Shown piece by piece: positions 1 through 45,196 of a DNA stretch of 64,000 nt; position 1 is the first letter of the stretch, and the number at the start of each line of letters is the position of its first letter. The DNA lies in IMG/VR virus record IMGVR_UViG_3300030616_000016, positions 70,561-134,560 of that record. One strand, 5' to 3'. The DNA is from a virus. Both the position numbers and the translations under genes were made by a program. The notes beneath the pieces are model-generated. The model saw only the letters and a list, made by a program, of their open reading frames with translations, was not told the origin of the DNA and did not search any database.

Positions 1-576
1 CTTTGTTCTACCTTTAACAAGGAAGAAGATGTCATTGGGCTTATCAAAACCTATAGATCAAACGATAGCTCGCGTGAAACTAATGTTGTCAGAACGGTGT
101 TATCTGAATGGAAGAAGAGCCTAAACATTCCAGATGCTTGTAGTTTCTGTGGAGTTCATTCTATTCTCTCCGAGTCCCAGATGGTAGCGTTGCTAGACAC
201 TATTGATTTATATGTGTGTACTTCTCGGGGAGAAGGAATGTCAGGCCCATTAATTCATGCTATGGCAATGGGAAAGCCTGTTATTTCTTCTGACTTTAGT
301 GCTATGAGTGACTTTATTTATGGCGATACATCTTTAAAGGTTGTTCGATACTGTCTAGAACCTGTTCATTCTATGTCACACATACCTTGGTATGGTCATA
401 GACAAGACTGGGCTAGACTAAACGTTTCTGATATTAGGGAAGGAATGCGTGAAGGATATGAATTATGGAGAGATGACAGAGATAGATTTGAAGAGATTGG
501 ACAGCGTGGAAGGGATTTTGTCAGAAAGATCTACTCTGACGAAGCAGTCCAGAAACGAATTAAGGAACTTATCTGA
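1..576 (+). CDS. glycosyltransferase family 1 (GT-B), C-terminal part; 5' end lies outside window
   Basis: Frame 1 is open from nt 1. EGMSGPLIHAMAMGKPVISSDFSAMSDFI matches the GT1 E-x7-E / sugar-nucleotide-binding region. Confidence 0.6.
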   Translation, partial: LCSTFNKEEDVIGLIKTYRSNDSSRETNVVRTVLSEWKKSLNIPDACSFCGVHSILSESQMVALLDTIDLYVCTSRGEGMSGPLIHAMAMGKPVISSDFSAMSDFIYGDTSLKVVRYCLEPVHSMSHIPWYGHRQDWARLNVSDIREGMREGYELWRDDRDRFEEIGQRGRDFVRKIYSDEAVQKRIKELI

Positions 577-720
577 TTGCAATATATTAAAGTCAAGTCT
601 TCCTAATAAACAAATTGCATATCTCTTATTAAATGGCTATAAGCCTAAAGAGATATGCAATATGTTACGCATTTCTATAAGATCGTTTTATCGTAGACTT
701 AAACAAAACTAAATACTTAT

Positions 721-745
721 TTTTACTAAACAGGGTTTAGTAAAA
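721..745. terminator. AT-rich perfect hairpin (TTTTACTAAAC-AGG-GTTTAGTAAAA) in the intergenic region between the plus-strand GT gene and the minus-strand RT gene; possible bidirectional terminator
   Basis: 11-bp perfect inverted repeat with a 3-nt loop, seen directly. The stem is weak (2 GC pairs) and the U-tract is poor. Confidence 0.25.
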
Positions 746-877
746 ATGGTTTTAACCCATGCTATTGGGCTTGTCCATATTCCCATCAGGCAATGTGTAC
801 ACTGCCCTATTCTGTATAAACTATCACCAGAAATTTACTATTTAGTTATTTTTAGTTTAGTCTTATAGAAATACTCT

Positions 878-2026
878 TTAGAACGAGTCAGCGCTTTCCT
901 TTTCTCTAACTGCTCTTTTTATTTGACTACTTAGTCTTGCGTGTGATTGCTTTTCTTTTGCTATGTCTTCTAATATTTCTATATCTTTACTGCTTAACAA
1001 CTTTCTTACTCTGATAATATCAAGGTGAGCAGCATATGATAGAGTTGCAAACAATGTTTCCAACTCCTTTTTATCACATTCATAATTCATGACTTTATGG
1101 ATCCACCCTTTATATTGCTTATATTTTTTGGATCCTATTCCACTAATTCTTCTTGCCATTGTTCTACGACTTATGTCAACTCCAAATACAACACCCAATG
1201 CACTTATTCTATTTATACCGCTTAACATAACTTTTGACTTATGTTTATTAAATCTCATTCCTTCTACTGCTACGGCCTTATTTGCGCACTTGAAAATATC
1301 ATTTATCCATTCTTTCCAGAATCTTTTAGATATGTAAGGCATAGAGCTACTTAGTTGTATGTCGTCAGCATATCTTGAATATCTGATCCTTCCATATGGC
1401 CAACCCATGCTTGACATTGTTATATCAAACTTTCTCATACATAGATTTGATATTACAGGACTTGATGGAGCACCTTGTGGTAATCCATTTGTCATTGAAA
1501 CAAGAGGTATTAATGGTATCTTATATTTTCTGCAGCATGTATCTACAGTATGTAATGATATAAGCATCTTTCTAATATGTTTTGCTTTAATAGATGGAAA
1601 GAAGTTCTTAATATCCATACTAATCATTATTCTAGCTCCATCATGTATCGACTGTAATTTGTTAATTGCAGTTTGGAAGCGTCTAGAACGTCTTAGTATT
1701 CTTCTAAAAGATTCTTGTGTTGTAAACAGCGGTTTTGGACTATATGCTAAGCTATGTCCATTTCTGTCATACTTTTGCAATAGCCATGAGACATATCTTT
1801 GTGCCGTTTTTAAGTCTTCGTCTGGCTCATGTAAATGCCTGATGCCACCTGATCTTTTTCTTATCATGTGGTGTGTATATCTTGAGTCTCTATCGTTTGA
1901 GTTTTGTTGTAAGTCTTCAAACAATTGCTGAATTGTAATACCAGATGGCAAGACTAGACTTAGAAAATTGTCAGGAGTTATATCATGAAGTCTCAGTTTC
2001 TTCTTTATCTGATTCTGTTCCATCAT
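878..2026 (-). CDS. reverse transcriptase (free-standing retron / group-II-intron-like RT, 382 aa)
   Basis: RT motifs: IRKRSGGIRHLHEP (1), ISMDIKNFFPSI (2), GLPQGAPSSPVISNL (4), YSRYADDIQL (5, YADD), NKHKSKV (7); the C-terminal KGWIHKVMNY resembles a thumb/X region. QGxxxSP is not the DGR-type IGxxxSQ. Its start overlaps the recA-like stop by 44 nt. Confidence 0.8.
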   Translation of the reverse strand: MMEQNQIKKKLRLHDITPDNFLSLVLPSGITIQQLFEDLQQNSNDRDSRYTHHMIRKRSGGIRHLHEPDEDLKTAQRYVSWLLQKYDRNGHSLAYSPKPLFTTQESFRRILRRSRRFQTAINKLQSIHDGARIMISMDIKNFFPSIKAKHIRKMLISLHTVDTCCRKYKIPLIPLVSMTNGLPQGAPSSPVISNLCMRKFDITMSSMGWPYGRIRYSRYADDIQLSSSMPYISKRFWKEWINDIFKCANKAVAVEGMRFNKHKSKVMLSGINRISALGVVFGVDISRRTMARRISGIGSKKYKQYKGWIHKVMNYECDKKELETLFATLSYAAHLDIIRVRKLLSSKDIEILEDIAKEKQSHARLSSQIKRAVREKESADSF

Positions 2027-3107
2027 CTCCGCCTTCCGATTCCGTATTGTCAGATATTAATTTGGTTATATCATTGTTTGCTGCAAATTCATATAGTGCT
2101 ATTATTCCTTGCACGCTTTCTTCGCCTATGTAGTAGTATCCACCACGCTTGGTGATTTTACCATCTACAATCATTTGATCTACTAAAAATCTTTCTTCAC
2201 TAAACCCATGATTAAAGATGAATGGATATTTTACTTCGGCTCCCTCCGGCATAGTACCAGACTGTCTAGTCTTATTGATTTTCATGTAATGCATGAAGCC
2301 AATAATTTTCTCTTTCTTCTTTCCATCTTCTTCTACAATGGCAGCTGGAGCTTCGCTTTTGCTACCTCTACGAGTCATCAGCCTTACGTGTGTAAAATGC
2401 TTAACCGCATTTCCTCCCTTAACGAGAGTTAGGTCACCATATCCACCAATATTGGTGTATATTTGACCAATCATTATGATTGTTGTGTTTGTCTTTGCTG
2501 CAGGACCACAAGCAAGTCTTAGGAACTGGCTCATTTTTCTTTGAAGAACACCGATGGTATCATCGTTTAGGCTACGGTTAGTACCGGTTTTACTTTCGAG
2601 TTCTGCGCGTGGAAGCAGACCGCCAATTGAATCAATAACTACGATGTCTACTAAATTCTCTCTCATAATGTCGAGACATTTATCTAGCATGTTCTCCATC
2701 GTATCTTTCTCAATTATAAAGAGCTCATCTGTATTGACTCCTTGTACTTTTAACCACTCTTTATCCAATGCTTCTTCTGCATCAACCCAGCATGCAATAC
2801 CATGGTTTTTCTGAACTTCTGCTACACATCTTGCACATGCAGTGCCTTTAGCTGTCTGTTCTGGTCCGGCGATTGTAACAATTTTACCTCTAGGAAAACC
2901 TCCGCCTAAATAGTCATCCCAGCCTTTAATGCCGGTTGATATTCTACCGTAATCCTCTAGTCCAAAATGTACAATTTGATTTTCATCATCGATGTCTTTG
3001 TTAATAGAAGTCGCTACTCTTTTTAGACGAGCCATCTTCTCTGCTTTTATATCTTGTGGAGATACAATCTTTTCTTCACTAGTATCTTTGCTTTTTCTCT
3101 TAGCCAT
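1983..3107 (-). CDS. recA: RecA-family recombinase (374 aa) with acidic C-terminal tail
   Basis: Aligns to the bacterial RecA core: GKIVTIAGPEQTAKGT (P-loop region), VDIVVIDSIGGLLPRAELE, IIMIGQI, GGNAVKHFTHVRLMTRRGS. GGAAG lies upstream of the ATG. Confidence 0.85.
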   Translation of the reverse strand: MAKRKSKDTSEEKIVSPQDIKAEKMARLKRVATSINKDIDDENQIVHFGLEDYGRISTGIKGWDDYLGGGFPRGKIVTIAGPEQTAKGTACARCVAEVQKNHGIACWVDAEEALDKEWLKVQGVNTDELFIIEKDTMENMLDKCLDIMRENLVDIVVIDSIGGLLPRAELESKTGTNRSLNDDTIGVLQRKMSQFLRLACGPAAKTNTTIIMIGQIYTNIGGYGDLTLVKGGNAVKHFTHVRLMTRRGSKSEAPAAIVEEDGKKKEKIIGFMHYMKINKTRQSGTMPEGAEVKYPFIFNHGFSEERFLVDQMIVDGKITKRGGYYYIGEESVQGIIALYEFAANNDITKLISDNTESEGGDDGTESDKEETETS

Positions 3108-3110
3108 GTG

Positions 3111-3287
3111 TTATTCTTCCAAACAAGTTTTACAGATTAAATTCCCAACGTCATCATGACTGCTACAATCTAAACAGATTGTTTTGCCACATGAACTACA
3201 TGATCCTAGATATGTGTCGGCCATAGTTTCCATAAACATTTGGTCGCATATTTCACAGTAGTTATCATTATCGTTGTTGTCACTCAT
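3111..3287 (-). CDS. small Cys-rich zinc-binding protein (58 aa; MSDNNDNDNYCEICDQ...CSSCGKTICLDCSS...CKTCLEE); not in the ORF track because it is under 60 aa
   Basis: Manual translation of the minus strand gives ATG at 3287 and TAA at 3111-3113, with 8 Cys in CxxC pairs. Confidence 0.4.
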   Translation of the reverse strand: MSDNNDNDNYCEICDQMFMETMADTYLGSCSSCGKTICLDCSSHDDVGNLICKTCLEE

Positions 3288-3651
3288 TATCTATGCCCTG
3301 CATTAAATATAGTAAATGATCTAGCTTCAAAGTAACAAGAGTGGTTTCATTACTAGGCTTAGCACTTCCTGAAGTACATAAGATAGGAAATCTACCAGTA
3401 TTTCTTGCTTCGCCTATCAATTTCTTCCAATCTGATTTTGATGGCATAAATATTCCATCTTTATTTGTTCTTTGTTTAGCTTCGATCTGTAATAATCGGT
3501 TTTGTATATCGCTATCAGATGCAAATACATTTCCAGAGCCTGCTGTTTCTCTTAAAGATATACCATATTGCTGTGCTCTTTCAACAATGTATCGTTGCAT
3601 TAATGCAGCGTTTTTATTCCTTCCGCCAACTCTTGACATAGGAATCTCCAT
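3280..3651 (-). CDS. hypothetical protein (123 aa)
   Basis: Minus-strand ORF packed against the recA-like gene; no recognisable motif. Confidence 0.45.
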   Translation of the reverse strand: MEIPMSRVGGRNKNAALMQRYIVERAQQYGISLRETAGSGNVFASDSDIQNRLLQIEAKQRTNKDGIFMPSKSDWKKLIGEARNTGRFPILCTSGSAKPSNETTLVTLKLDHLLYLMQGIDNE

Positions 3652-3752
3652 GCTTATTGCCTTTAAGTTTCTTATAGCCTGTCCATACTAATTCCCAACA
3701 GGCTATCTTAACTACCGTAGTGTATAATCTCCAGAGAATATATCCACAATGC

Positions 3753-4139
3753 CTATTCATGGCCCATATCCTCCTCAGGATTATACAAATAGGTTTTTCT
3801 GCCTATCATAAATCCTAATATACACATCTTTGTCATGCATAAATAGATATTCTTATCAAATTCTTCATCAGTATCACTATTTTCTAATATCCATTCTAGA
3901 TGGTCTTCACATACATTATCTATGAAATGCATGAGTGATCCTTCACATTCTTCTAACCAATCTTGTATCTCATTGCTCGTCTCTCTTTCTTCGAGCAATC
4001 TGTGACATTCGGAGATTATTTCTTTGGATACCATGTTGTAATCATCAAGTGTTATTTTCTTCATTGGTTTTTGGTCTCCATGTATATTTTGCATGCCAGG
4101 TTTTCTTTGCTTCAGTTGCATTGTCGTTTGTATTATCAT
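3753..4139 (-). CDS. hypothetical acidic protein (128 aa)
   Basis: Minus-strand ORF; begins MIIQ like its neighbour. Confidence 0.4.
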   Translation of the reverse strand: MIIQTTMQLKQRKPGMQNIHGDQKPMKKITLDDYNMVSKEIISECHRLLEERETSNEIQDWLEECEGSLMHFIDNVCEDHLEWILENSDTDEEFDKNIYLCMTKMCILGFMIGRKTYLYNPEEDMGHE

Positions 4140-4584
4140 CCTGCTTTGTTTCCTGGCTCTCGTTGGCTTCGTTCTCTGGTTTAGGATCTTCTTTCTTTTC
4201 TTCTTTGATGCGATTGTGTTGATCTAAAATATCTACATTACATGTTTTGATAAATTCATTAAAGTCTGTTTCACTTAAACAGTAATCATTAACATGAATG
4301 TGATAATGTAGATGTTCAGAATCCATCTCAGAAGAAGTTACCAGTTTACCAACAATATACAATGTAGAATCCAAATCTACAGCCTTATCTATCTCCTCTT
4401 CTTCAGGATATTCGAAGTGTAGTTCGTATATATTACTATCATTTGGAGATATACTAGTACCTCTTGCTTTATATACTTTTGTAGATAGAGCTCCTTTCTT
4501 GTCATTGTCTACGGCATCGCTCATTAAATCAATCTTGATCGCCTTCAGAACTGTCATTCCTTGATTGAACCTCTGTATTATCAT
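4045..4584 (-). CDS. hypothetical protein with low-complexity K/E/N-rich tail (179 aa)
   Basis: Minus-strand ORF; overlaps the next gene by 95 nt, so the true 3' end is uncertain. Confidence 0.4.
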   Translation of the reverse strand: MIIQRFNQGMTVLKAIKIDLMSDAVDNDKKGALSTKVYKARGTSISPNDSNIYELHFEYPEEEEIDKAVDLDSTLYIVGKLVTSSEMDSEHLHYHIHVNDYCLSETDFNEFIKTCNVDILDQHNRIKEEKKEDPKPENEANESQETKQDDNTNDNATEAKKTWHAKYTWRPKTNEENNT

Positions 4585-5764
4585 TATTTGCTCCTACAAA
4601 AAATCCTTCTCTCGTGTTCGATGAGTCTGATTGCTCACCGTGTTGTTCTTCTACTTTCCATAGTACTATGTTATTCTCTTCATGCTTAAGTATTTTAAGC
4701 TTGATGGTATTTGTTGCACAGCATTTAATCTGTTCTGCAAACTGTTTGATCGGCAGTAATATAGAGAAATCTTCTTCTGTTTCAGTTGTACAATTTAAGA
4801 TAATATTTGTACTGCCTTCCTCGCCATTAATATTTATTCTTATCCTTTTAACATTGTCATCGCTACCTTCTTCACCTGGAATAACAATAAAGTTAGCTAA
4901 TATTAGGCTTGGATCTTTTAGTATAAACCCTGTGAGATTAATACATTCTTCTCTATTAATAATGAAGGACGCCATTTCTATAGACTGTTCTTCTATTAAA
5001 GAAACACTATTCCATTCCGGTACAGCTTGATCAATATTGCGTTTCATACACTCAATGTTAATATACCATCTAGTGTCTGCATCAAAATGCGTGAGTCTTA
5101 TAAAGTTTAAATTATCAAATACAATAAAATTAAAGCTTGGTGAATGATTTATAATACTGCTCACGTTTGATAATACATCTCTTGTAAGTATAGATGGATT
5201 GTTTATGTCACTTAGGTCTTGTGATCTAATAATACTACTTTGAATTCTATCAATACAATACATTTTTGAGTTATCAATTGTAATTATATCGCCTAGCTGG
5301 TTAAATTCAAGCTTTGTTTTTGCCATAGCTTTAATATATTGTGGTGAAAATATTATTTTCGGTAATCCAATAGCATTAGGTGTAGCACTAAATTCATCTA
5401 TTCCGTTAGTTCCTTCTTCACATAATCTAAAGTCTCTGTTGATGTTGCCGCCGTTAATACTAATAAATCTATTATCATAGCTTATATGTATGACATCATC
5501 ACATGCAGAAATAAAATCAAGTAGCTTTTTGCAGTCATATTTAGTAATGACATTAGACTCAAGCTGTTCTTCTAGAGCATTAGCTGCCATAAATTTACCT
5601 GCTTGAGATCTTAGGCACATCATAAAGATTGAGTGACTTGTAACAAAATTGTTATCGTCATTCCAGAATCCAAAATATATGTCTGATGATTGAGCTATTT
5701 TAGTGGCATTTTGAAGTAGCTCAATCAAACGTGATTTATTAATTTGCATCTCTTCTCCCATCAA
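4529..5764 (-). CDS. hypothetical protein (411 aa)
   Basis: Long minus-strand ORF in the replication/recombination neighbourhood; no motif recognised. Confidence 0.5.
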   Translation of the reverse strand: MMGEEMQINKSRLIELLQNATKIAQSSDIYFGFWNDDNNFVTSHSIFMMCLRSQAGKFMAANALEEQLESNVITKYDCKKLLDFISACDDVIHISYDNRFISINGGNINRDFRLCEEGTNGIDEFSATPNAIGLPKIIFSPQYIKAMAKTKLEFNQLGDIITIDNSKMYCIDRIQSSIIRSQDLSDINNPSILTRDVLSNVSSIINHSPSFNFIVFDNLNFIRLTHFDADTRWYINIECMKRNIDQAVPEWNSVSLIEEQSIEMASFIINREECINLTGFILKDPSLILANFIVIPGEEGSDDNVKRIRININGEEGSTNIILNCTTETEEDFSILLPIKQFAEQIKCCATNTIKLKILKHEENNIVLWKVEEQHGEQSDSSNTREGFFVGANNDNTEVQSRNDSSEGDQD

Positions 5765-6218
5765 TAGTTGCTCTTTTTAATGCTTCGTCTAGTTTATTAA
5801 CTAGCTGACCAGCGCTATACGAAATTCTATTAATCTTATTATATCCTGCTATTGCTTCGACATGTGCAATATACATATCTTTAGTATTCACACGTGCTTG
5901 TCTTAATGCTTCATCTCCTGTATAGTTCTTGTTAGTTGCTTCATTCTTTGTGCCTCTTAATTCGTTATATTCCTCATCTCTAGCAATTTCTCGCTCATAG
6001 TCTGCTTGTTTCTCAGCGCCTATTAATTCTCCAACCATTGGCGAGATGCTTACTAGCAATGCAGATAGGTGTAGAAGGTCATTTTGCATATCATAGTAGT
6101 TATCCCAAGTGTTTGGTTCTCCGCCAAACTCTTCTGGTGCATACTTTTGGGAGATTCTCATAATCTCCCTTATTTCCAGCTCGATGCTTCTTCTACCTTC
6201 TTCTGTTACTTCAATCAT
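5739..6218 (-). CDS. hypothetical protein (159 aa)
   Basis: minus-strand ORF. Confidence 0.45.
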   Translation of the reverse strand: MIEVTEEGRRSIELEIREIMRISQKYAPEEFGGEPNTWDNYYDMQNDLLHLSALLVSISPMVGELIGAEKQADYEREIARDEEYNELRGTKNEATNKNYTGDEALRQARVNTKDMYIAHVEAIAGYNKINRISYSAGQLVNKLDEALKRATIDGRRDAN

Positions 6219-10939: not shown

Positions 10940-11614
10940 TCAACTACAAGGCCACACTAGCCTGTAGTCCGCTGACCCTTTTAGAAACATTAATTCATCC
11001 ATAGATAAATTATGTTCATTTGCAACTATAAATCCTATGTTTCCGTAGTCATCGAATCTCATAAGAGATATAAAGTTTTCTATTCCGAACCTATTTTTTG
11101 ATTCGTTTCCACAATAAACGCAATTTGGAAATCCGTATAGCATTTTAGAACCACATAGACCACACTCTTCTTTAGACTCCAGTTTGTAAACTCTTAGTTC
11201 TTTTAGTATTCTTTCATTAATCATAAACGATTGTTGCCCAAGTTTTACCTCTGTACGTTCATGCAAATCTACAAGAGCATCAAATGGAATTCGATTGATC
11301 CAGTAATTTAATGGTCTTAAGCTAGCTGTTCTATTTCTATATATAAGTAAGTTAACTAGTATTTTGTCTGCACATATGGGAGAGCCTTCTTTAAAAATAT
11401 ATCCCATAATTTTATTAGTTCCAATAACATTTCTAGAGCTTCCAATTTCTGGCACTGCTAATGTTAAGCGATTTGGGCTTAGGACTATATCCCATTTCTT
11501 TGATAAATCTTGAGGCTCGTCTGGGTTGTGAGGAGTTATATGCGCCAGCTTTTCTTCTATAGCTCCACGAAATATTGAGCTTTTTCTTCGCTCTAGACAT
11601 TGCGACATATACAA
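10940..11614 (-). CDS. hypothetical protein with CxxCG-x9-CxYCG zinc ribbon; the start may be the internal Met at about 11407 because the ORF overlaps the helicase 3' end
   Basis: ECGLCGSKMLYGFPNCVYCG; the ORF overlaps the uvrD-like C-terminus by 180 nt in another frame. Confidence 0.4.
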   Translation of the reverse strand: MYMSQCLERRKSSIFRGAIEEKLAHITPHNPDEPQDLSKKWDIVLSPNRLTLAVPEIGSSRNVIGTNKIMGYIFKEGSPICADKILVNLLIYRNRTASLRPLNYWINRIPFDALVDLHERTEVKLGQQSFMINERILKELRVYKLESKEECGLCGSKMLYGFPNCVYCGNESKNRFGIENFISLMRFDDYGNIGFIVANEHNLSMDELMFLKGSADYRLVWPCS

Positions 11615-13175
11615 CTCTCCTTTCGGACTCTATTTCGTCTTCTTCTACCATTGTGCATGGATAGTATCCTTCTTCCATCCCGCACATATAAACAATATCA
11701 AACTCAAGTCCCTTTACTCCGTGAACAGTAGCTATAGTCACATCTCCTGCATCGTTATCTGAGTTGCTTGTAAGTTTGATCTTATTTACTAGGTCAATCA
11801 TTGAGTCACAAGAGTCAGACATATAATCTATAATTTCATATAAGGATATCTGATACTTACTCTCGTCCATTTCATCAAGGAGTTTACAAGCATCTTTGAC
11901 TCCTTGCATATCATTGTTTAGGATCTTGTCTATTATCTCTACTATGTCCTCATTATCAACAAGAATTTTAGATTTTTCTTGGCTATTTTCTCTGTTAATA
12001 AATTGGTTAAGAAATCGTTTGCCTAATCCTCTTTTCAAGTATGCAAGAAATTGTGAGGTTCTTTCTATATTGATTCCGTCTTCTTTATTAATAGGATGAA
12101 GCCCACATATAAGATCAATAAGTCTTTTTGTCTTACCTCTTTCTGATAGTGACAGTCCACCTATTCTAGTATATGGTATAGCACGTTGATCAAAATATAT
12201 AGCTACAGTATCTAGTTGTCTATGTGTACGACCTAATATAGCCACTGAATTGCCAGCTTCCATATATCTTTGTATGTCTCGTGCCAAAAACTGATTCTCA
12301 TCAGATTCTGAGTTGAATGGATAGAAATCAACATTAGGTATACTAGCTTCTTCTGCAGTAATTTCACTGCTATAAGTATCTGCATTGCAGGATATTAGTT
12401 TATTACAATATCCAGCAATATGATTGTCAAATCTCCATGTATATGATAATGGAAGTACTTTGGCGCCTGATTCTTTTATGAGCATTTCTGTATTTTCGTA
12501 ACATGCACCACGAAATTGGTACAAGCACTGATTTTGGTCGCCTACTACTGTGAATCCTCTGTTAAAATCATACGTAAGTTCTTTAACCATATTGTATTGA
12601 ACAGTGTTGGTATCTTGCCATTCATCCACAATAATTCCATCGCAACCTACGTCTCTCATATATTCTATGGAGTCGTAAAGAAGATCACTGAAGTCTTTGA
12701 CATGGTTCTTTAGCTTGGTAGTTTTGTATATCTTAGCGAGAGAATCTAAGCTGTCTTGTACTGACAGATTATTTACTTCTACATTATTTTGAAGCTTAAT
12801 CTTTGCAGCTTCAAGTAAAAGCTTATAGATATCACTGTCAGGAGAGTATCCCATTTTCTTTATACAGCTTCTTATCAACTCTGTAGATTCGTTCTGGTCA
12901 ATAATCTCGAATTCTTGTTTGTTATTCTTGAGGAGTTGTAAGCCCAAGCCATGGAATGTTCCAATGAAAACAGCATTGTTCCCAGTTAGTCTACTTGTAA
13001 GTTCTTTTGCTGCCTTATTAGTAAATGTAATAGCAACGAACTTGTAATCTATATCAGCAACACCATAAGCTAATGTGGTTGTTTTGCCACTGCCAGGCGC
13101 AGCCATAACTACGTTTTTGTTGGCTGGGTCTTTCATATGCAAGATAATTGCTTGCTGTTCTTCAGTTGGATTCAT
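11433..13175 (-). CDS. UvrD/Rep/PcrA-like SF1 DNA helicase
   Basis: MNPTEEQQAIIL, AAPGSGKTT (Walker A), IIVDEWQD (motif II), RRVVYVAMSRAKKKL (motif VI), and a C-terminal SRFI. Start placed at the Met preceding NPTEEQ. Confidence 0.85.
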   Translation of the reverse strand: MNPTEEQQAIILHMKDPANKNVVMAAPGSGKTTTLAYGVADIDYKFVAITFTNKAAKELTSRLTGNNAVFIGTFHGLGLQLLKNNKQEFEIIDQNESTELIRSCIKKMGYSPDSDIYKLLLEAAKIKLQNNVEVNNLSVQDSLDSLAKIYKTTKLKNHVKDFSDLLYDSIEYMRDVGCDGIIVDEWQDTNTVQYNMVKELTYDFNRGFTVVGDQNQCLYQFRGACYENTEMLIKESGAKVLPLSYTWRFDNHIAGYCNKLISCNADTYSSEITAEEASIPNVDFYPFNSESDENQFLARDIQRYMEAGNSVAILGRTHRQLDTVAIYFDQRAIPYTRIGGLSLSERGKTKRLIDLICGLHPINKEDGINIERTSQFLAYLKRGLGKRFLNQFINRENSQEKSKILVDNEDIVEIIDKILNNDMQGVKDACKLLDEMDESKYQISLYEIIDYMSDSCDSMIDLVNKIKLTSNSDNDAGDVTIATVHGVKGLEFDIVYMCGMEEGYYPCTMVEEDEIESERRVVYVAMSRAKKKLNISWSYRRKAGAYNSSQPRRASRFIKEMGYSPKPKSLNISSARNWKL

Positions 13176-21872: not shown

Positions 21873-23167
21873 TACCCCACGCCTAAAGGCGGGGGCTTCC
21901 TAATTCATCGAAAATTGCGTTCCATACTGGCTACGTCTTACATCTTCTCCAAAGGCTTTAGGTTCCCCTTGCCCAGGGGTACAAAATGCAAAATTCAAAA
22001 TATTACTAGATGCAAGGGCATCTCTATCGTGTTTGGCACCACAAGTGCAAGTCCAATATCTGTCACTTAGCTTAAGATTATTATTTATAGCGCCGCACTG
22101 GTTACACATCTTGCTGGATGGTTCAAATCTTCCTATAGTCAAAACATGCTTTCCATACCAACCTGCCTTATACTCAAGAAAGGTACGAAAAGTATACCAT
22201 CCAACATCAGAGATAGCCTTGGCCAAACAATGATTCTTCACCATTCCAGAAACGTTTAAATCCTCAAGACACACTGCTTGGTTCTCGTCAATGAGCCTTT
22301 TGGACAATTTATGCAAAAAATCTTTACGTTGATTAGAAATCTTCTCATGTATCAACGCTACCTTCCTACGAGCCTTGTTTCTATTTGAAGAACCTTTCTT
22401 CTTCTTTGATAATTGTTTTTGCTTTCTTGCCAATCTTCTTTCAAGTTTCTTTAGGTATCTTGGATTATCTATTTTCTCGCCTGTTGATAGTGTTGCAAAA
22501 TGTTTTAATCCAACGTCAACACCTACACTATTATCTCGTTCAGGATTACATTTGATAGGTAATTCTTCTCCATTGTCAACCAAAATAGAAGCAAAGTATT
22601 TCCCAGAAGGAGCCATGAATATAGTTACAGTTTTAATATTGCCTTCAAATTGTCTATGGAATTTGCATTTGATGCCATCACGGAATTTCATTACATATAG
22701 CCTATTATTATCAAAATCCACATTACTTCCTTGTGGAAATTGACAAGATTGCTTTTTGAATTTCTTCTTAAATTGAGGATATCTTGCCTGTTTCTTAAAA
22801 AACCGCCGGAAAGCATTGTCAAGGTTTCTAAAGGCCATTTGCAAAGATTGACTATTAACTTCCTTCAGCCAACCATGCTCAGATTTCATATGTTTCAATT
22901 GCTTTATCAAATCAAAACAGGAAGGAGATTTCCCCGTTTTTTGATAAGACTCTGTTTTCTTTTGGAGTCCCAAATTGTATATGAACCGTACACAACCAAA
23001 ATGCTTCACAAGAAGCTCCTGTTGTTTTTTGTTGGGGTATATTTTGTATTTATATGCTCGTATCATTATATTTATAGTATAGCACAGGTTTCTGTAAATG
23101 TCAAGAGAAAAACGCATTCTTATATCCCCATGGCTAAAGCCAGGGGTCTTACGAATGCACCTTGATA
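21866..23167 (-). mobile_element. IS200/IS605-family tnpB-only (IS1341-like) element with subterminal imperfect hairpins
   Basis: Left end begins TTATCAAGGTGCATTCGTAAGACCCCTGGCTTTAGCCATGGGG; right end finishes CCCCCGCCTTTAGGCGTGGGGTAATGTCAC. Both ends recur at 33634-33883 and 62731-62781. Confidence 0.7.
21900..23066 (-). CDS. tnpB: TnpB (OrfB) RuvC-like RNA-guided nuclease / IS605 accessory protein
   Basis: MIRAYKYKIYPNKKQQELL...FGCVRFIYN N-terminus; C-terminal CNQCG...CTCG zinc finger; RuvC-like regions. Confidence 0.85.
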   Translation of the reverse strand: MIRAYKYKIYPNKKQQELLVKHFGCVRFIYNLGLQKKTESYQKTGKSPSCFDLIKQLKHMKSEHGWLKEVNSQSLQMAFRNLDNAFRRFFKKQARYPQFKKKFKKQSCQFPQGSNVDFDNNRLYVMKFRDGIKCKFHRQFEGNIKTVTIFMAPSGKYFASILVDNGEELPIKCNPERDNSVGVDVGLKHFATLSTGEKIDNPRYLKKLERRLARKQKQLSKKKKGSSNRNKARRKVALIHEKISNQRKDFLHKLSKRLIDENQAVCLEDLNVSGMVKNHCLAKAISDVGWYTFRTFLEYKAGWYGKHVLTIGRFEPSSKMCNQCGAINNNLKLSDRYWTCTCGAKHDRDALASSNILNFAFCTPGQGEPKAFGEDVRRSQYGTQFSMN

Positions 23168-33497: not shown

Positions 33498-33633
33498 CTT
33501 GCTTATTAAATGATAATTAGATAGTTACTTAGATAATCAAATTATTTGATAGATCGGTAACATATCTCAATTATGCAATTTTTTGGTAATATATGTATAT
33601 CACTGTGCCTTAAAATGAGTACCTATTATCGTT

Positions 33634-33883
33634 TATCAAGGTGCATTCGTAAGACCCCTGGCTTTAGCCATGGGGATATAAGAATGCGTTTTTCTCTTGA
33701 CATTTACAGAAATCTGTGCTATACTTTTGCTAATGATCGAAAACCAAGATCATTGGCAAAGAATTTAGATACCGCAGGGCATGCGGAAATTTACGCCTTT
33801 GGAGAAGATGTAAGACTTGTCTGCTTGAAAGCAGTCTTCAGTGAATTAGGAAGCCCCCGCCTTTAGGCGTGGGGTAATGTCAC
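33634..33883 (+). mobile_element. MITE-like miniature derivative (about 250 bp) of the IS605-family element, with LE and RE but no tnpB; sits 5 bp downstream of the RNAP beta-like gene
   Basis: About 95 nt match the LE of the full element and about 60 nt its RE (GCCTTTGGAGAAGATGTAAGAC ... GGAAGCCCCCGCCTTTAGGCGTGGGGTAATGTCAC). Confidence 0.65.
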
Positions 33884-40624: not shown

Positions 40625-40985
40625 ATACATATGGTATATTTATTCTTCGTGATTCATTCGTTTGGCATGGTATTTCAATTTGCTTGATTCGCTAATGAGT
40701 AGTGGTGTTTCAATATTTTTGGCTCATTTTAATACTTTGTTCTATTCTTTCATATGATTCATTCCTTGGTCCTGGTATTTTAGGGCTGATGGCTCATTCA
40801 GTACAATTGGTATTTTCGTGTTCATAATTCATTCTTGTTGTTTGGTATTTCCACCAAGATGACTCATTCTAATAAAGTGGTTGTTCAAATAAAGTGATTC
40901 ATTCTTCCACGTTGATGTATTCAATTGCATAGTTCATTCTTTTCTTGTGATATTTCGTGTAGATTGATTCATTCATGAAAACTAT
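40625..40985. repeat. Degenerate tandem array, about 10 units of about 33-34 bp, consensus TGGTATTTC-N7-8-TGATTCATTC-N7-8
   Basis: Read directly: GATTCATTC recurs about 9 times and GGTATTT about 8 times with regular phasing. Confidence 0.7.
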
Positions 40986-42329: not shown

Positions 42330-42920
42330 TGGTGTTTTCCTTTTTGTGATTCATTCATTATAACTGATGTTTCTATAAGTGTGATTCATTCTTTAATAAT
42401 GGTAATTTAATGGCTTTGATTCATTTTTCCCCAATGGTATTTCTTATGTAATTATTCATTCTTTATACTTGATATTGTGACTACATTGATTCATTTGTAT
42501 GGACTGGTATTTCATATTTAGTGATTCACTCACTTATTTTGGTATTTCCATGGGTGTGGTTCATTCCGGCATGATGGTACTTCTAGGCAATTAATTCATT
42601 CTTATAGTCTGGTACATTGTCCTATCTGATTCATTCCTTCTTTATGGTATTTCGTGACTGATAATTCATTCTGTTCAGCTGGTATTTTGGAGCTTATGAT
42701 TCGTTCGCAATTAATGGTACTTTCTGATTTATAACTCATTTTCTCCGAATGGTATTTCAGATTGAGTGATTCATTTGTTCATGTTGAATTATTGTGCAAA
42801 GTGATTCATTCTCGCGACATGGTATTTTGGGGCTAATGATTCATTCATAATATATGATATTTTTTGGATAATGATTCGTTCATGTTGCATGGTAATTCTA
42901 GGACGCTGACTCGCTCCAAG
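42330..42920. repeat. Second degenerate tandem array, about 17 units of about 33-34 bp, same consensus (TGGTATTTC ... TGATTCATTC) and same orientation as array 1
   Basis: Read directly; ATTCATTC and GGTATTTC cores alternate with variable 7-8-nt spacers. Confidence 0.7.
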
Positions 42921-43009: not shown

Positions 43010-44020
43010 TTACCAAGGCCAGTTAGGGACCTCGATCTTATGAACATGTTTCAAGTGATCGAATGCATAAGGCTGGAAAGGCGCTTCGACGCCATAATGA
43101 GCACGATAAGCAACTTCCCACCAGTGAGACAGGAATATCTTAGTAGCCCATCTCTTACTTCTCATATGAATCTGACTATTGGGGAGCTTGCCTTCGCGAT
43201 ATATTGCCCTCTGTTTATGACCAGGCACTCTTCGAAGAACTTCTCGTGCAATATGCGCATATTCCTTGGCTTCATTCTTACGCGACTCGATAATCTTCCT
43301 TTCAACAACAAGATGTCCATAGAGATCTTTTGGATTGTTGCATGTCATATTGAAAGACTCACCGATTTTCCAGCAGAGTGTTTTCAGTTCTGAATTCCAG
43401 GGACGCATTGACAGACCTCTGTAAAGCGTCTTGCCTGTATGAACTCCGCCTCCTTTCTGTAATGAGAGACGAAGTGCGGTAGCTGCTTTGATTCCTCCGG
43501 CTTCTTGTATCGCATTTGCTACCTTAATAGCATCTTCTTCAGATACTCTTCTTGTACTATCAGGATTAATACCGGCTTCGTCAACCATGATTTCTCTTGT
43601 AACTTTCTTGCCAAGCCAGCGCTTTCCGTCTACAAGACCAGCATAGCTATAGATATGTCCTGGAGTCTTAGCTTTGTCCATATCTATATGGGCAATAAGA
43701 CCGGCGCTGATAACAGGGCCAATACCTACAACTGATTGAGCCCATGTACCAATTTTTGTTGATAATGAGAAATGATTGAGCGCGAGCTTCACCTGATTCT
43801 CAAGACGCTCCGCATTCTTAAGAAACCAATCAAGCACTTCCATTGGAGGGTCGTCTACGCCCTGCTCTGCTGCTCTAAGCTGACCAGCAAGCCTGATTCT
43901 CTGGTTCTGCATGGTATAATAACTATCTACCAGATAGCGGGCTTCCTGACGCGTAATCTTTCTTGACGCGTTTCTTATGTCTTTACCTACTCTTTCAATA
44001 ATTTCTTCAATAGCCATCAC
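43010..44020 (-). CDS. hypothetical Trp-rich protein (336 aa) with a Transposase_20-like helix-hairpin-helix motif; locally GC-rich
   Basis: VVGIGPVISAGLIAHIDMDKAKTPGHIYSYAGLV resembles the IS110-family C-terminal HhH (PGIG..tA..L.A...D..RF.s...L.sYAGL). No DEDD N-terminal domain was recognised. Confidence 0.45.
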   Translation of the reverse strand: MMAIEEIIERVGKDIRNASRKITRQEARYLVDSYYTMQNQRIRLAGQLRAAEQGVDDPPMEVLDWFLKNAERLENQVKLALNHFSLSTKIGTWAQSVVGIGPVISAGLIAHIDMDKAKTPGHIYSYAGLVDGKRWLGKKVTREIMVDEAGINPDSTRRVSEEDAIKVANAIQEAGGIKAATALRLSLQKGGGVHTGKTLYRGLSMRPWNSELKTLCWKIGESFNMTCNNPKDLYGHLVVERKIIESRKNEAKEYAHIAREVLRRVPGHKQRAIYREGKLPNSQIHMRSKRWATKIFLSHWWEVAYRAHYGVEAPFQPYAFDHLKHVHKIEVPNWPW

Positions 44021-44038: not shown

Positions 44039-45196
44039 TTAAAGCATGTTTACCATGCTATTATATAGACCCGCATACTCTTGCGGGCCTGAACGTTTGC
44101 CTGGGTTATCGGACAATTTAACAGTAGGAACAAAGCCCTCTCTATTATATGAACAGGCAGTCATTTTAATAACGATATTAAGAGGATCTACTCCAACATC
44201 ATTAGTGAAATTAGTGCCTATACCATATACTGTTTTGATTCTTTTGTTTACATATTCTTCTATCTCAAGAACCTTGTCAACATCAAGAGAGTCTGAGAAT
44301 ACAATGGTTTTTGTACTTGGATCTATACCAAGGCTCTCATAGTGTTTTATTATTTTGTCAGCAAATTCCATAGGATCGCCTGAATCTTGCCTTACACCAT
44401 CCCAAAGACTCGCTCTGACATAATCAAATGATCTTAGAAACCAATCAGTTGTATAAGTATCAGTAAGCGCTATGCCTAGTTTGCCCTTATATGTCTCTGC
44501 CCATTTATCAAGGGCAATAGAAGTAGCCATTTGAGGACCAAATATGGCGCCGTGGAACATAAACCACTCATGAGCTTGTGTGCCAATTGGTCGCATGTTA
44601 TGAGTGGTTGCTAATAATACATTACTTGTACCAAGACAGTATTGTGAAATTTGTTTTCTTGTAGACATGTCATCCAGAAGTTCATTCTGTACACCAAATG
44701 AAAATCTGCGTCTGGTTCCGAATTCTATGAAGTTGACTTTGTGCTTGATGAGTTTGTCAACCTTGTCTACATTTGTTTTATATCTTTCTTTCCTGAACTT
44801 AGGCGCTATACCAAGCTTAAGATAGTATAGCTCGCTAATAGCCGCTAATAGCGGTACTTCCCATAGTATAGCAGAATACCATGGCCCGCATATTTCTACT
44901 TTGAGATCTTCGTCTGTTTGTGTAACACATACTTCATTAGGATTGAATCGATGATGTCGTAGGTATTCTAGATATGTTGAATCAAAGACTCCAATCTTTC
45001 GCATAGCTGTAATACTATCGTCTATAAAGTATGTATGTTGCATATGATCAATAAACTCATTTAATTCCTTTTGCATACTTTCAGGGAACTCAGTCTTTGT
45101 TCTTGACTTGAATTCATATTTTACTAATGCAGATGGATAGTGTTTAAGTACTGCATTTTGCATGGCGAACTTATAGAAATCATTGTCTGCTGCCAT
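44039..45196 (-). CDS. pncB: nicotinate phosphoribosyltransferase (NAPRTase, PncB-type)
   Basis: FIEFGTRRRFS, LGTSNVLLA and VRQDSGDP signatures of the NaPRTase family. Confidence 0.8.
   Translation of the reverse strand: MAADNDFYKFAMQNAVLKHYPSALVKYEFKSRTKTEFPESMQKELNEFIDHMQHTYFIDDSITAMRKIGVFDSTYLEYLRHHRFNPNEVCVTQTDEDLKVEICGPWYSAILWEVPLLAAISELYYLKLGIAPKFRKERYKTNVDKVDKLIKHKVNFIEFGTRRRFSFGVQNELLDDMSTRKQISQYCLGTSNVLLATTHNMRPIGTQAHEWFMFHGAIFGPQMATSIALDKWAETYKGKLGIALTDTYTTDWFLRSFDYVRASLWDGVRQDSGDPMEFADKIIKHYESLGIDPSTKTIVFSDSLDVDKVLEIEEYVNKRIKTVYGIGTNFTNDVGVDPLNIVIKMTACSYNREGFVPTVKLSDNPGKRSGPQEYAGLYNSMVNML

What the first reader, a model, noticed from the sequence alone, without database searches (positions are those of the whole stretch)
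878..3107. Free-standing reverse transcriptase overlapping a RecA-family recombinase gene
A 382-aa RT with full motifs 1-7 (YADD active site, QGxxxSP, thumb-like GW..NY region) starts 44 nt before the stop of a bona fide RecA homologue, so the two are co-transcribed. No msr/msd-like or group II intron RNA structures are evident: the upstream side is occupied by recA and the downstream 300 nt hold only an AT hairpin. Group-II-intron-like RTs (G2L4 type) have been shown to work in double-strand-break repair and microhomology-mediated end joining. An RT-RecA module in a phage could be a recombination/repair device, a retron-like or DRT-like anti-defence element, or a cDNA-generating system.
Basis: partly seen in the sequence, partly recalled or inferred. 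Interest (0 to 1): 0.65.

Follow-up and report, generated by a model that had tools for sequence, protein, structure and literature searches.

The report
Phage retron-like RT coupled to RecA
A large phage carries a retron-type reverse transcriptase that overlaps its RecA recombinase gene and is followed by a folded RNA resembling a retron template, an arrangement kept in four related phage lineages and not reported in the papers searched.

Summary
A 382-aa reverse transcriptase (RT) ORF (878-2026, minus strand) starts 44 nt before the stop of a 374-aa RecA/UvsX-like ORF (1983-3107). The catalytic residues are intact.

The G2L4 / group-II-like comparison fails. Sequence profiles and the predicted fold place the RT in the retron clade.

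It belongs to a family of only five lineages among billions of proteins. RecA lies directly upstream in all four lineages that can be judged. None of 37 other viral retron-like RT loci has a RecA within 6 kb.

Positions 707-847 on the RT strand fold into a 141-nt element with:
- a closing stem;
- two facing unpaired G residues;
- three short hairpins;
- one longer perfect hairpin.

This matches the published msr-msd plan. A covariance model built from the window element alone recovers the equivalent elements downstream of the RT in the other lineages (E 5e-5 to 0.02). Compensatory changes occur in 36 of 48 base pairs. The window holds no second copy.

My best reading is an effector-less retron-like unit with its RNA placed 3' of the RT, built into a phage recombination operon. 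Production of RT-DNA and its role with RecA are inferred, not shown. I rate it a new variant of a known kind.

The parts
1983..3107 (-). RecA/UvsX-like recombinase, 374 aa, with the clade-specific P-loop GPEQTAKGT and an acidic C-terminal tail
   Evidence: Orthologues are 58-66% identical in L001, L006 and L011/L012.
878..2026 (-). Retron-clade reverse transcriptase, 382 aa, with catalytic D138 and YADD 219-222. The family replaces the retron motifs NAxxH and VTG with L[KQ]SxH and [AV]LG; the H and the G are kept.
   Evidence: The family gap is shown.
1983..2026 (-). 44-nt overlap of the RecA 3' end and the RT 5' end in different frames, with GGAAGG upstream of the RT ATG
   Evidence: The region is unstructured (z +0.61).
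707..847 (-). Candidate msr-msd-like ncRNA, 141 nt. P0 closing stem 847-839/715-707. Facing unpaired G838 and G716. One pair U837-A717. P1 832-810, P2 807-788, P3 776-748. P4 is 747-719, a 13-bp perfect hairpin with loop CCU.
   Evidence: Folds. It is the only element in 64 kb on either strand with all four hairpins >=8 bp. The covariance model built from it finds the counterparts in the other lineages. The window has no second copy.
669..874 (-). Outer 14-bp stem (874-861 with 682-669) enclosing the element and a small 3' hairpin (706-683)
   Evidence: A perfect 12-mer inverted repeat at this spacing is expected about 3 times per 64 kb by chance, so this part is weak on its own.
3111..3287 (-). 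58-aa zinc-ribbon ORF directly upstream of RecA; the position is conserved in relatives
   Evidence: weak FYVE/IBR-type hits below cut-off. A 55-64-aa ORF is called in the same position in L001, L006 and L011/L012; it is not called in L002 and its sequence homology was not tested.
3280..3651 (-). 123-aa ORF with a D..D...E.K motif, a weak match to Holliday-junction-resolvase PHROG_2002. It is the first gene of the nuclease / Zn-ribbon / RecA / RT run.
   Evidence: No PDB sequence match.
449..712 (+). Convergent 87-aa HTH ORF whose stop codon (710-712) lies inside the 3' arm of P0. It overlaps the 3' end of the glycosyltransferase gene, which stops at 576.
   Evidence: The same layout occurs in L006 and L054.

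Best explanation
This is an effector-less, retron-like unit inherited vertically inside the recombination/replication module of a roughly 231-kb phage-like contig. RecA and the RT are made from one message and are translationally coupled.

The 3' untranslated end of that message folds into an msr-msd-like RNA (707-847). It has a closing stem, two facing G residues, three short hairpins and one longer hairpin, P4.

Inferred steps, none of them shown here:
- The RT binds this RNA.
- It primes on the 5' G (G838).
- It copies P4 (719-747), and perhaps P3, into a short hairpin RT-DNA of roughly 30-60 nt.

My preferred function, also inferred, is that this RT-DNA works with the co-expressed phage RecA. 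It could be a defined ssDNA substrate or cofactor for strand invasion or recombination-dependent replication. It could instead switch on RecA filament activity. A stand-alone toxin-type defence seems less likely.
For: Shown here:
1. Retron-clade RT with intact catalytic residues.
2. A sharply separated family. Bit scores are 785, 620, 234, 217 and 203, then 135, then a continuum at or below 117 among 1.84 billion representatives. With the five-sequence profile four family members score 488-508 bits and the next protein 183.
3. RecA lies immediately upstream in window/L002, L001, L006 and L007/L011/L012/L054, with gene-by-gene synteny. RT identity of 37% falls within the 19-72% range of neighbouring proteins.
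4. RecA-RT spacing is -44, +24, +130 and +119 nt. In the two long spacers a 9-bp stem pairs the RecA stop region with the RT start region.
5. None of 37 other viral retron-like RT loci has a RecA within 6 kb.
6. The downstream element has the same plan in four lineages. The model built from the window copy alone returns them as the top, full-length, RT-strand hits at 28.3, 27.3, 23.3, 22.7 and 18.2 bits, against a background of 12.4 or less.
7. In the aligned copies 97.6% of cells pair, against 64.7% when shuffled and 40-44% when slid. 36 of 48 pairs carry changes on both sides. About 19 G-U cells, my own tally from the pair table, make the fold specific to the RT strand, and sense folds are more stable than antisense folds.
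8. The plan matches the published definition: complementary ends, one to three short msr hairpins, a 10-50-bp msd hairpin, and two opposing G residues (PMC7736814).
Against: - No msDNA, transcript or activity data exist. Priming and template use are pure inference.
- The RNA lies 3' of the RT. The retron ncRNAs described in the papers I read lie upstream of it.
- In L006 about 880-1030 nt separate the RT from the two element copies, and in L007/L054 about 240 nt do. The element instead abuts the stop codon of the convergent HTH gene in three lineages. It could therefore belong to that gene or serve as a terminator or insulator for convergent transcription.
- N-A of NAxxH and V-T of VTG, residues linked to msr recognition and initiation, are replaced.
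- P4 at 13 bp would give an unusually short msDNA.
- Only four lineages are available. The covariation alignment was fitted to the structure, and the model's E-values are rough.
- L006 and L007 carry extra elements of similar plan: the RecA-RT spacer, and a tandem copy in L006.
- No evidence shows that RT or RT-DNA touches RecA. Adjacency may only reflect operon packing.
Confidence: 0.45

Rival explanations
1. This is a conflict system rather than a recombination device. The phage carries an orphan retron (RT plus ncRNA) whose RT-DNA acts as a decoy or sensor, either against host defences or against competing phages. RecA is only a neighbour in the same operon.
For: All characterised retrons act in phage defence (abstracts). 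Orphan (msr-msd)-RT cassettes without effectors are on record (PMC7736814). Viral contigs often carry retron-like RTs: 37 loci in IMG/VR. At 37% identity the RT has diverged more than RecA at 60-66%.
Against: No toxin or effector gene is nearby, and the neighbouring genes have no significant PADLOC hits. The RT is not in a variable hotspot; it is fixed in a core replication module across lineages whose proteins have diverged to 19-72% identity. The tight coupling to RecA is kept in all four lineages and absent from 37 other viral RT loci.
Confidence: 0.25
2. The RT works as a repair polymerase without a dedicated RNA, as the reader's G2L4 analogy suggests. It would do snap-back or microhomology-mediated synthesis at breaks processed by RecA. 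The downstream element would then be only a terminator or insulator between convergent genes.
For: RecA, a PD-(D/E)xK nuclease-like gene, RuvC, UvrD and DnaE surround the RT. P4 is followed by a U-rich stretch in the AT-rich lineages. The 3' arm of the element overlaps the HTH stop codon.
Against: The RT is retron-clade and not G2L. A five-way junction with facing G residues, kept by compensatory change in four lineages, is far more than a terminator needs. In the GC-richer L007, P4 has no U-tract directly after it.
Confidence: 0.15
3. The real template RNA lies upstream of the RT, in the canonical retron position. It survives in L006 and L007 as the structured RecA-RT spacer and has been lost in the window and L001. 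If so, the window RT may be template-less or may use an RNA encoded elsewhere in the 231-kb genome.
For: The spacers have a 9-bp closing stem, a G right after the 5' arm, GG before the 3' arm and three to four hairpins with compensatory changes (z -4.5 and -4.25). The window-built model aligns them full length, though weakly (12.3 and 11.5 bits).
Against: The spacer stem contains the RecA stop and the RT start, so translational coupling explains it as well. The spacer is absent from two of four lineages (z +0.61 and +0.25), whereas the downstream element is present in all four. The spacer scores are within background.
Confidence: 0.1

Closest known systems
Type II-A retrons (Retron-Eco1/Ec86, Retron-Sen2/St85)
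   Same: They give the best profile matches (PADLOC RT_II-A 1.4e-37, NCBIfam retron_St85_RT 1e-40) and the best solved-structure matches (Ec86 RT, TM-score 0.72 normalised by the PDB chain). The RT sizes are similar. The ncRNA plan is also shared: complementary ends, facing G residues, short hairpins, then one longer hairpin next to the 3' arm.
   Different: - The score (139.8 bits) is below the family cut-off of 235.
- N-A of NAxxH and V-T of VTG are replaced.
- There is no nucleoside-deoxyribosyltransferase-like effector.
- The RNA lies 3' of the RT, not 5'.
- It is encoded by a large phage and coupled to RecA.
Orphan / stand-alone (msr-msd)-RT cassettes (Mestre et al. 2020, PMC7736814)
   Same: RT plus ncRNA with no linked effector gene; function unknown.
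   Different: Those are bacterial and have the RNA upstream. Here the unit sits in a conserved phage recombination operon with RecA as a constant partner.
Retron-carrying P4-like phage elements phiR67 and phiR73 (Ec67, Ec73; from my own knowledge, not checked here)
   Same: A retron RT carried by a phage-type element.
   Different: As far as I recall, those are temperate P4-like phage elements carrying defence-type retrons (Ec67's RT carries a fused Toprim domain) with no RecA link. Ec67-type models score lower here (2.6e-32).
G2L4 group-II-intron-like RT (double-strand-break repair)
   Same: A free-standing RT linked in concept to DNA repair.
   Different: It belongs to a different RT clade. 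The structure match is poor (TM-score 0.40 normalised by the PDB chain) and the PDB sequence match is E 2e-3.
Engineered retron recombineering ('recombitrons'; from my own knowledge)
   Same: An RT-made ssDNA expressed together with a recombinase.
   Different: The engineered systems use single-strand annealing proteins and a designed msd. Here the partner is a RecA-type strand-exchange protein, the hairpin is short, and no homology target was found.

Membership tests
Retron | RT falls in the retron/retron-like clade | tested here: met
   PADLOC, NCBIfam, PDB sequence and Foldseek searches all rank retron RTs first. The score is below the curated cut-off of every specific retron family.
Retron | Region X motif NAxxH and region Y triplet VTG (PMC7736814) | tested here: inconclusive
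   H128 and G278, the residues the paper calls most conserved, are invariant across 72 sequences. N-A and V-T are replaced in all five family members by L[KQ]SxH and [AV]LG.
Retron | Adjacent ncRNA with complementary ends, 1-3 short msr hairpins, a 10-50-bp msd hairpin and two opposing G residues | tested here: met
   Window 707-847 has a 9-bp P0, G838/G716, P1-P3 of 8-9 bp and P4 of 13 bp. The plan is kept in four lineages. Caveat: it is a predicted structure and lies 3' of the RT.
Retron | ncRNA upstream of the RT in one transcript | tested here: not met
   In the window the upstream side is RecA coding sequence and is unstructured (z +0.61). The element is downstream.
Retron | Production of branched multicopy ssDNA (2'-5' link at the priming G) | not testable with these tools
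   Needs nucleic-acid extraction or cDNA sequencing.
Retron | Linked effector/toxin gene (tripartite system) | tested here: not met
   RecA, the Zn-ribbon ORF, the nuclease-like ORF and the HTH ORF have no significant PADLOC match (best E 0.0023). No fused domain is present: the RT model is one RT-thumb body plus a C-terminal helix.
Group II intron / G2L RT | Intron RNA domains, or clustering with maturase or G2L RTs | tested here: not met
   No Rfam hit at E<=10 in window 1-6000 or at E<=1 in four related loci. Group II RT/maturase scores 1e-16 against 1e-40 for retron. TM-scores normalised by the PDB chain are 0.40-0.47 for GsI-IIC and G2L4.
Diversity-generating retroelement | Template/variable repeat pair near the RT | tested here: not met
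   No direct repeat of 40 nt or more lies near the RT anywhere in the 64-kb window.
DRT/UG and Abi RTs | Best match to DRT, UG or Abi models | tested here: not met
   Drt3a 1.6e-15, Drt2 3.5e-12 and Drt4 5.7e-3, all far below the retron models. Structural matches are weak.
RecA/UvsX recombinase | RecA fold with Walker A lysine, catalytic Glu, Walker B Asp and the L2 GGNA loop | tested here: met
   The P-loop has A/C-K-G-T in place of G-K-T-T, conserved within the clade. ATPase activity was not tested.

The most novel reading that the evidence does not exclude
The module is a natural counterpart of engineered retron recombineering. The RT copies the P4 hairpin of its own 3' UTR into a defined ssDNA. 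The co-translated phage RecA loads onto that ssDNA. The result would be one of two things: a D-loop whose 3' end primes DnaE-dependent replication (a cDNA-primed origin), or a constitutive RecA-ssDNA filament that switches on RecA-dependent signalling in the infected cell.
Probability: 0.12. Interest if true: 0.92.

Novelty: new variant of a known kind. Interest (0 to 1): 0.72.

Why it matters
Retrons are known as bacterial anti-phage systems built from an RT, an RNA and a toxin. Here a retron-type RT and an msr-msd-like RNA have been kept, without any toxin, inside the core recombination operon of a phage lineage. They are locked to RecA by overlap or a coupling stem.

If the RT-DNA is real, three things follow:
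- A retron-like element would have a role on the virus side.
- A retron RNA could sit 3' of its RT.
- There would be a natural pairing of reverse-transcribed ssDNA with a strand-exchange protein.

That pairing bears directly on how retron editors might be coupled to recombinases. The unit is compact, at about 2.4 kb for RecA, RT and RNA, so it can be tested directly by expression in E. coli.

Tried and rejected
- **Group II intron or G2L RT:** rejected by profile, structure and Rfam results.
- **DGR:** no template/variable repeats.
- **DRT or Abi:** much weaker matches.
- **Upstream ncRNA hidden in the RecA 3' end of the window or L001:** these regions fold no better than shuffles.
- **Sequence homology among the downstream regions:** none by blastn, and MAFFT cannot align them.
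- **A generic 'closing stem plus four hairpins' criterion:** too common to be useful, at 38 places in the window. Only the stricter form, with all hairpins >=8 bp, singles out the element.
- **The outer 12-nt perfect inverted repeat:** expected by chance about 3 times per 64 kb.
- **The covariance model with default filters:** found only itself. Filters had to be switched off.
- **More family members:**
  - IMG/VR by protein and by profile gave none.
  - JGI metagenomes by profile gave none.
  - A DNA pattern for the spacer stem gave one chance hit and one contig already known.
  - The GenBank phage collection gave none by DNA and only distant RTs by protein.
- **HTH, Zn-ribbon and nuclease-like ORFs as retron accessory proteins:** no significant PADLOC hits.
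- **A target for P4 elsewhere in the window:** none.
- **Literature:** no report of a RecA-linked phage retron RT in the papers searched.
Full report
**1. The observation**

The ORF listing gives an RT ORF at 878..2026 (-), 382 aa, and a RecA ORF at 1983..3107 (-), 374 aa. They overlap by 44 nt in different frames. The sequence shows GGAAGG about 5 nt before the RT ATG and no alternative canonical start before the conserved N-terminus.

The RT matches Pfam RVT_1 (7.6e-20). It keeps D138, YADD 219-222, LPQGAPSSP and the GW thumb motif.

The RecA ORF matches Pfam RecA (1.6e-40), PHROG 'UvsX-like recombinase' (1.1e-49) and TIGR02012 (9.7e-47, below its cut-off). Aligned with E. coli RecA (recalled from memory), it keeps the Walker A lysine, E96, the Walker B aspartate, Q194 and GGNA. 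Its P-loop reads GPEQT[AC]KGT in all three phage orthologues.

The coordinates and the overlap are therefore confirmed.

**2. What kind of RT**

- All top 25 PADLOC hits shown are retron RT models, the best being RT_II-A at 1.4e-37.
- NCBIfam gives retron_St85_RT 1e-40 and retron Ec67 2.6e-32. Group II RT/maturase scores 1e-16 and Drt3a 1.6e-15.
- The best PDB sequence matches are Ec86, Ec67 and other retron RTs. G2L4 scores E 2e-3.
- An AlphaFold2 model (pLDDT 87.3, pTM 0.82) finds 11 retron RT chains first by Foldseek. TM-scores normalised by the length of the PDB chain are 0.72 for Ec86, 0.47 for GsI-IIC and 0.40 for G2L4.

The G2L4 analogy is not supported.

The two retron signature motifs are only half kept. 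The H of NAxxH and the G of VTG are invariant in a 72-sequence alignment, and Mestre et al. call these the most conserved residues (PMC7736814). N-A and V-T are replaced in the whole family by L[KQ]SxH and [AV]LG.

**3. A very small, phage-specific family tied to RecA**

A profile of the two closest sequences was searched against 1.84 billion representatives. The scores were 785, 620, 234, 217 and 203 bits, then 135, then a continuum at or below 117 bits made of ordinary retron RTs. A five-sequence profile against 5.8 billion clusters listed four of the five family members at 488-508 bits, followed by a drop to 183.

The genomic contexts are:
- L002 is the source contig of 231.6 kb.
- L001 is a 41-kb contig.
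- L006 is a 29-kb contig.
- L007, L011, L012 and L054 represent one lineage.

All show the same gene order: UvrD ... PD-(D/E)xK nuclease-like (123 aa), Zn-ribbon, RecA, RT, then oppositely oriented HTH and glycosyltransferase genes, then RuvC and DnaE.

Protein identities between lineages run from 19 to 72%. The RT is at 37% and RecA at 60-66%. This means the RT is an old, vertically inherited part of this module and not a recent insert.

The fifth lineage (L005, a 1.5-kb contig) is too short to judge. A more distant phage RecA (L013) has no RT. None of 37 retron-like RT loci recovered from IMG/VR has a RecA within 6 kb.

The window looks like part of a large phage:
- nearly all genes lie on one strand;
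- most are ORFans;
- there are PHROG hits to phage helicases and a split RNA polymerase beta-like protein;
- no tRNA genes are present.

The 'phage' label remains an inference.

**4. Coupling of RecA and RT**

The spacing is -44 nt (window), +24 (L001), +130 (L006) and +119 (L007). In the two long spacers a 9-bp stem, AUAAUGUCU/AGACAUUAU, pairs the RecA stop codon region with the RT start codon. Its sequence is identical in both lineages, while the hairpins it encloses differ but keep their positions (z -4.5 and -4.25). The corresponding region of the window and of L001 is unstructured (z +0.61 and +0.25).

All four arrangements fit translational coupling of the RT to RecA. That step is inferred.

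**5. The downstream element**

Folding the RT-sense strand from the RT stop codon gives these parts:
- an outer 14-bp stem, 874-861 with 682-669;
- P0, 847-839 with 715-707;
- unpaired G838 facing unpaired G716;
- one pair, U837-A717;
- hairpins P1 (832-810), P2 (807-788) and P3 (776-748);
- P4 (747-719), which is 13 bp, perfect, with a 3-nt loop.

L001 (10997-11137), L007 (1629-1771) and L006 (12175-12324) show the same plan at the same size, 141-150 nt. Each has the same facing G residues, and the sequences are not alignable. Z-scores are -3.4, -9.7 and -7.4.

I checked how special this plan is.
- A generic 'closing stem >=8 bp plus four hairpins' motif occurs at 38 places in 1594 folds of the window. 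That form is not special.
- Only 707-847 on the minus strand has all four hairpins >=8 bp.
- The same strict form in about 76 kb of related loci marks only the three RT-downstream elements and one unrelated site.

The independent test used a covariance model built from the window element alone. With filters off, it returned these as the top, full-length, RT-strand hits:

| Locus | Coordinates | Bits | E-value |
|---|---|---|---|
| L001 | 10996-11138 | 28.3 | 5e-5 |
| L054 | 1285-1419 | 27.3 | 5e-5 |
| L006 | 12023-12174 (a tandem second copy) | 23.3 | 8e-4 |
| L007 | 1633-1767 | 22.7 | 1e-3 |
| L006 | 12175-12324 | 18.2 | 0.02 |

The best background hit scored 12.4 bits. In the whole window no second copy exists.

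Pair counts on the model-fitted alignment:
- 97.6% of cells pair, against 64.7% when shuffled and 40-44% with partners slid.
- 36 of 48 pairs have changes on both sides.
- P0, P1, P2 and P4 are supported; P3 is variable.
- About 19 G-U cells, by my own tally from the pair table, make the fold specific to the RT strand. Sense folds are more stable than antisense folds for every element of the five-lineage family.

Caveats: the alignment was fitted to the structure, there are only four lineages, and the model's E-values are rough.

**6. Comparison with the retron definition**

Mestre et al. describe complementary ends that hybridise, one to three short msr hairpins of 3-10 bp, a long msd hairpin of 10-50 bp and two opposing G residues (PMC7736814). 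The element meets each of these.

As a sanity check I folded the Ec86 ncRNA, recalled from memory. It gives the same general picture.

The differences are:
- The element is 3' of the RT.
- In L006 and L007/L054, other structured inserts lie between the RT and the element. These are a roughly 700-nt, 65% GC region in L006 and a 230-nt domain with a 105-nt hairpin in L007.
- The 3' arm of P0 overlaps the stop codon of the convergent HTH ORF in the window, L006 and L054.
- No effector gene is present.
- Rfam has no match.

**7. Interpretation**

What is shown:
- a retron-clade RT with intact catalytic residues;
- a conserved RecA-RT pairing;
- a conserved, strand-specific, msr-msd-like structure downstream.

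What is inferred:
- the RT uses this RNA, priming at G838 and copying P4;
- the product acts with RecA.

I give about 0.45 to this combined reading. The rivals are:
- a conflict-type orphan retron with RecA as a bystander (0.25);
- an RNA-independent repair polymerase with the element acting as a terminator (0.15);
- the upstream spacer as the true template, lost in the window (0.10).

I found no report of a RecA-linked phage retron RT in the library searched. That search covered two jumbo-phage reviews and a 2026 retron survey.

**8. Verdict**

The finding is real and more interesting than first described. It is not a G2L-type enzyme. It is a new variant of the retron kind: phage-encoded, effector-less, RecA-coupled, with its candidate template RNA at the 3' end. 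The function is unproven, and the unit is small enough for a direct test.

Noticed in passing
window 40650-40975 and 42350-42920: Two ORF-free arrays of a 35-nt unit. On the gene (minus) strand the unit reads GAATGAATCA, 8-9 variable nt, AAATACCA, 8-9 variable nt. There are about 9 and about 17 units. The arrays flank two small genes and sit next to a PHROG_4285 'transposase' ORF (43010-44020). TRF misses them. Their function is unknown; iterons, a promoter array or an RNA array are possibilities.
   Followed up: partly
window 449-712 (+), overlapping 449-576: An 87-aa HTH ORF overlaps the last 128 nt of the glycosyltransferase gene in another frame. The same overlap and an open frame are kept in L001, L006 and L054. 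It is either a real overlapping gene or a frameshift product.
   Followed up: partly
window 21900-23117 (-): A 405-aa ORF with a strong match to PHROG_506 'transposase' (1.5e-133), possibly TnpB/IS605-like, inside the phage genome.
   Followed up: no
window 44039-45196 (-): A nicotinamide phosphoribosyltransferase-like ORF (PHROG_448, 1.9e-19), suggesting NAD+ salvage and possibly counter-defence.
   Followed up: no
window 33630-33675 and 62727-62772; 61016-61097 and 63919-64000: A 46-nt repeat (93% identical) ending in a GC hairpin, and an 82-nt repeat (94% identical), each present twice far apart.
   Followed up: no
window 61601-62056 and 60444-60563: Repeats with 12-nt and 15-nt periods. 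The first lies inside ORF 61020-62240 and so encodes a tandem peptide repeat.
   Followed up: no
L006 11150-11850: A roughly 700-nt, 63-67% GC, heavily base-paired insert directly after the RT in a phage of about 48% GC. It is bracketed by GGGGAGGAGCUA / UAGCUUCUCCCC. The 178-aa ORF called there looks spurious. It has no Rfam match.
   Followed up: partly
L007 1389-1618: A 230-nt domain directly after the RT stop, with a 17-bp closing stem and a 105-nt hairpin (z -9.0). It sits between the RT and the conserved element. Its nature is unknown.
   Followed up: partly
L003 4278-5484 (Listeria phage LPJP1); L004 3950-5190 (Staphylococcus phage MarsHill): Cultured jumbo phages carry distant RTs (25-26% identity), each preceded by about 1.2 kb with no annotated gene.
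   Followed up: no
L008 9677-10000 and 10976-11452: The next-nearest RT (P0124, 135 bits) sits in a 50-kb phage with MCM and PolA genes. It is flanked by 324-nt and 478-nt strongly structured gaps.
   Followed up: no
L002 15538-20260 (outside the window): The DnaE (Pol III alpha) gene of the source phage is split by a LAGLIDADG-type ORF. L001 has it intact.
   Followed up: no
window 1983-3107, residues 81-89: The RecA P-loop reads GPEQTAKGT (A-K-G-T instead of G-K-T-T). The variant is conserved in the three phage orthologues. Its effect on ATPase activity is unknown.
   Followed up: partly
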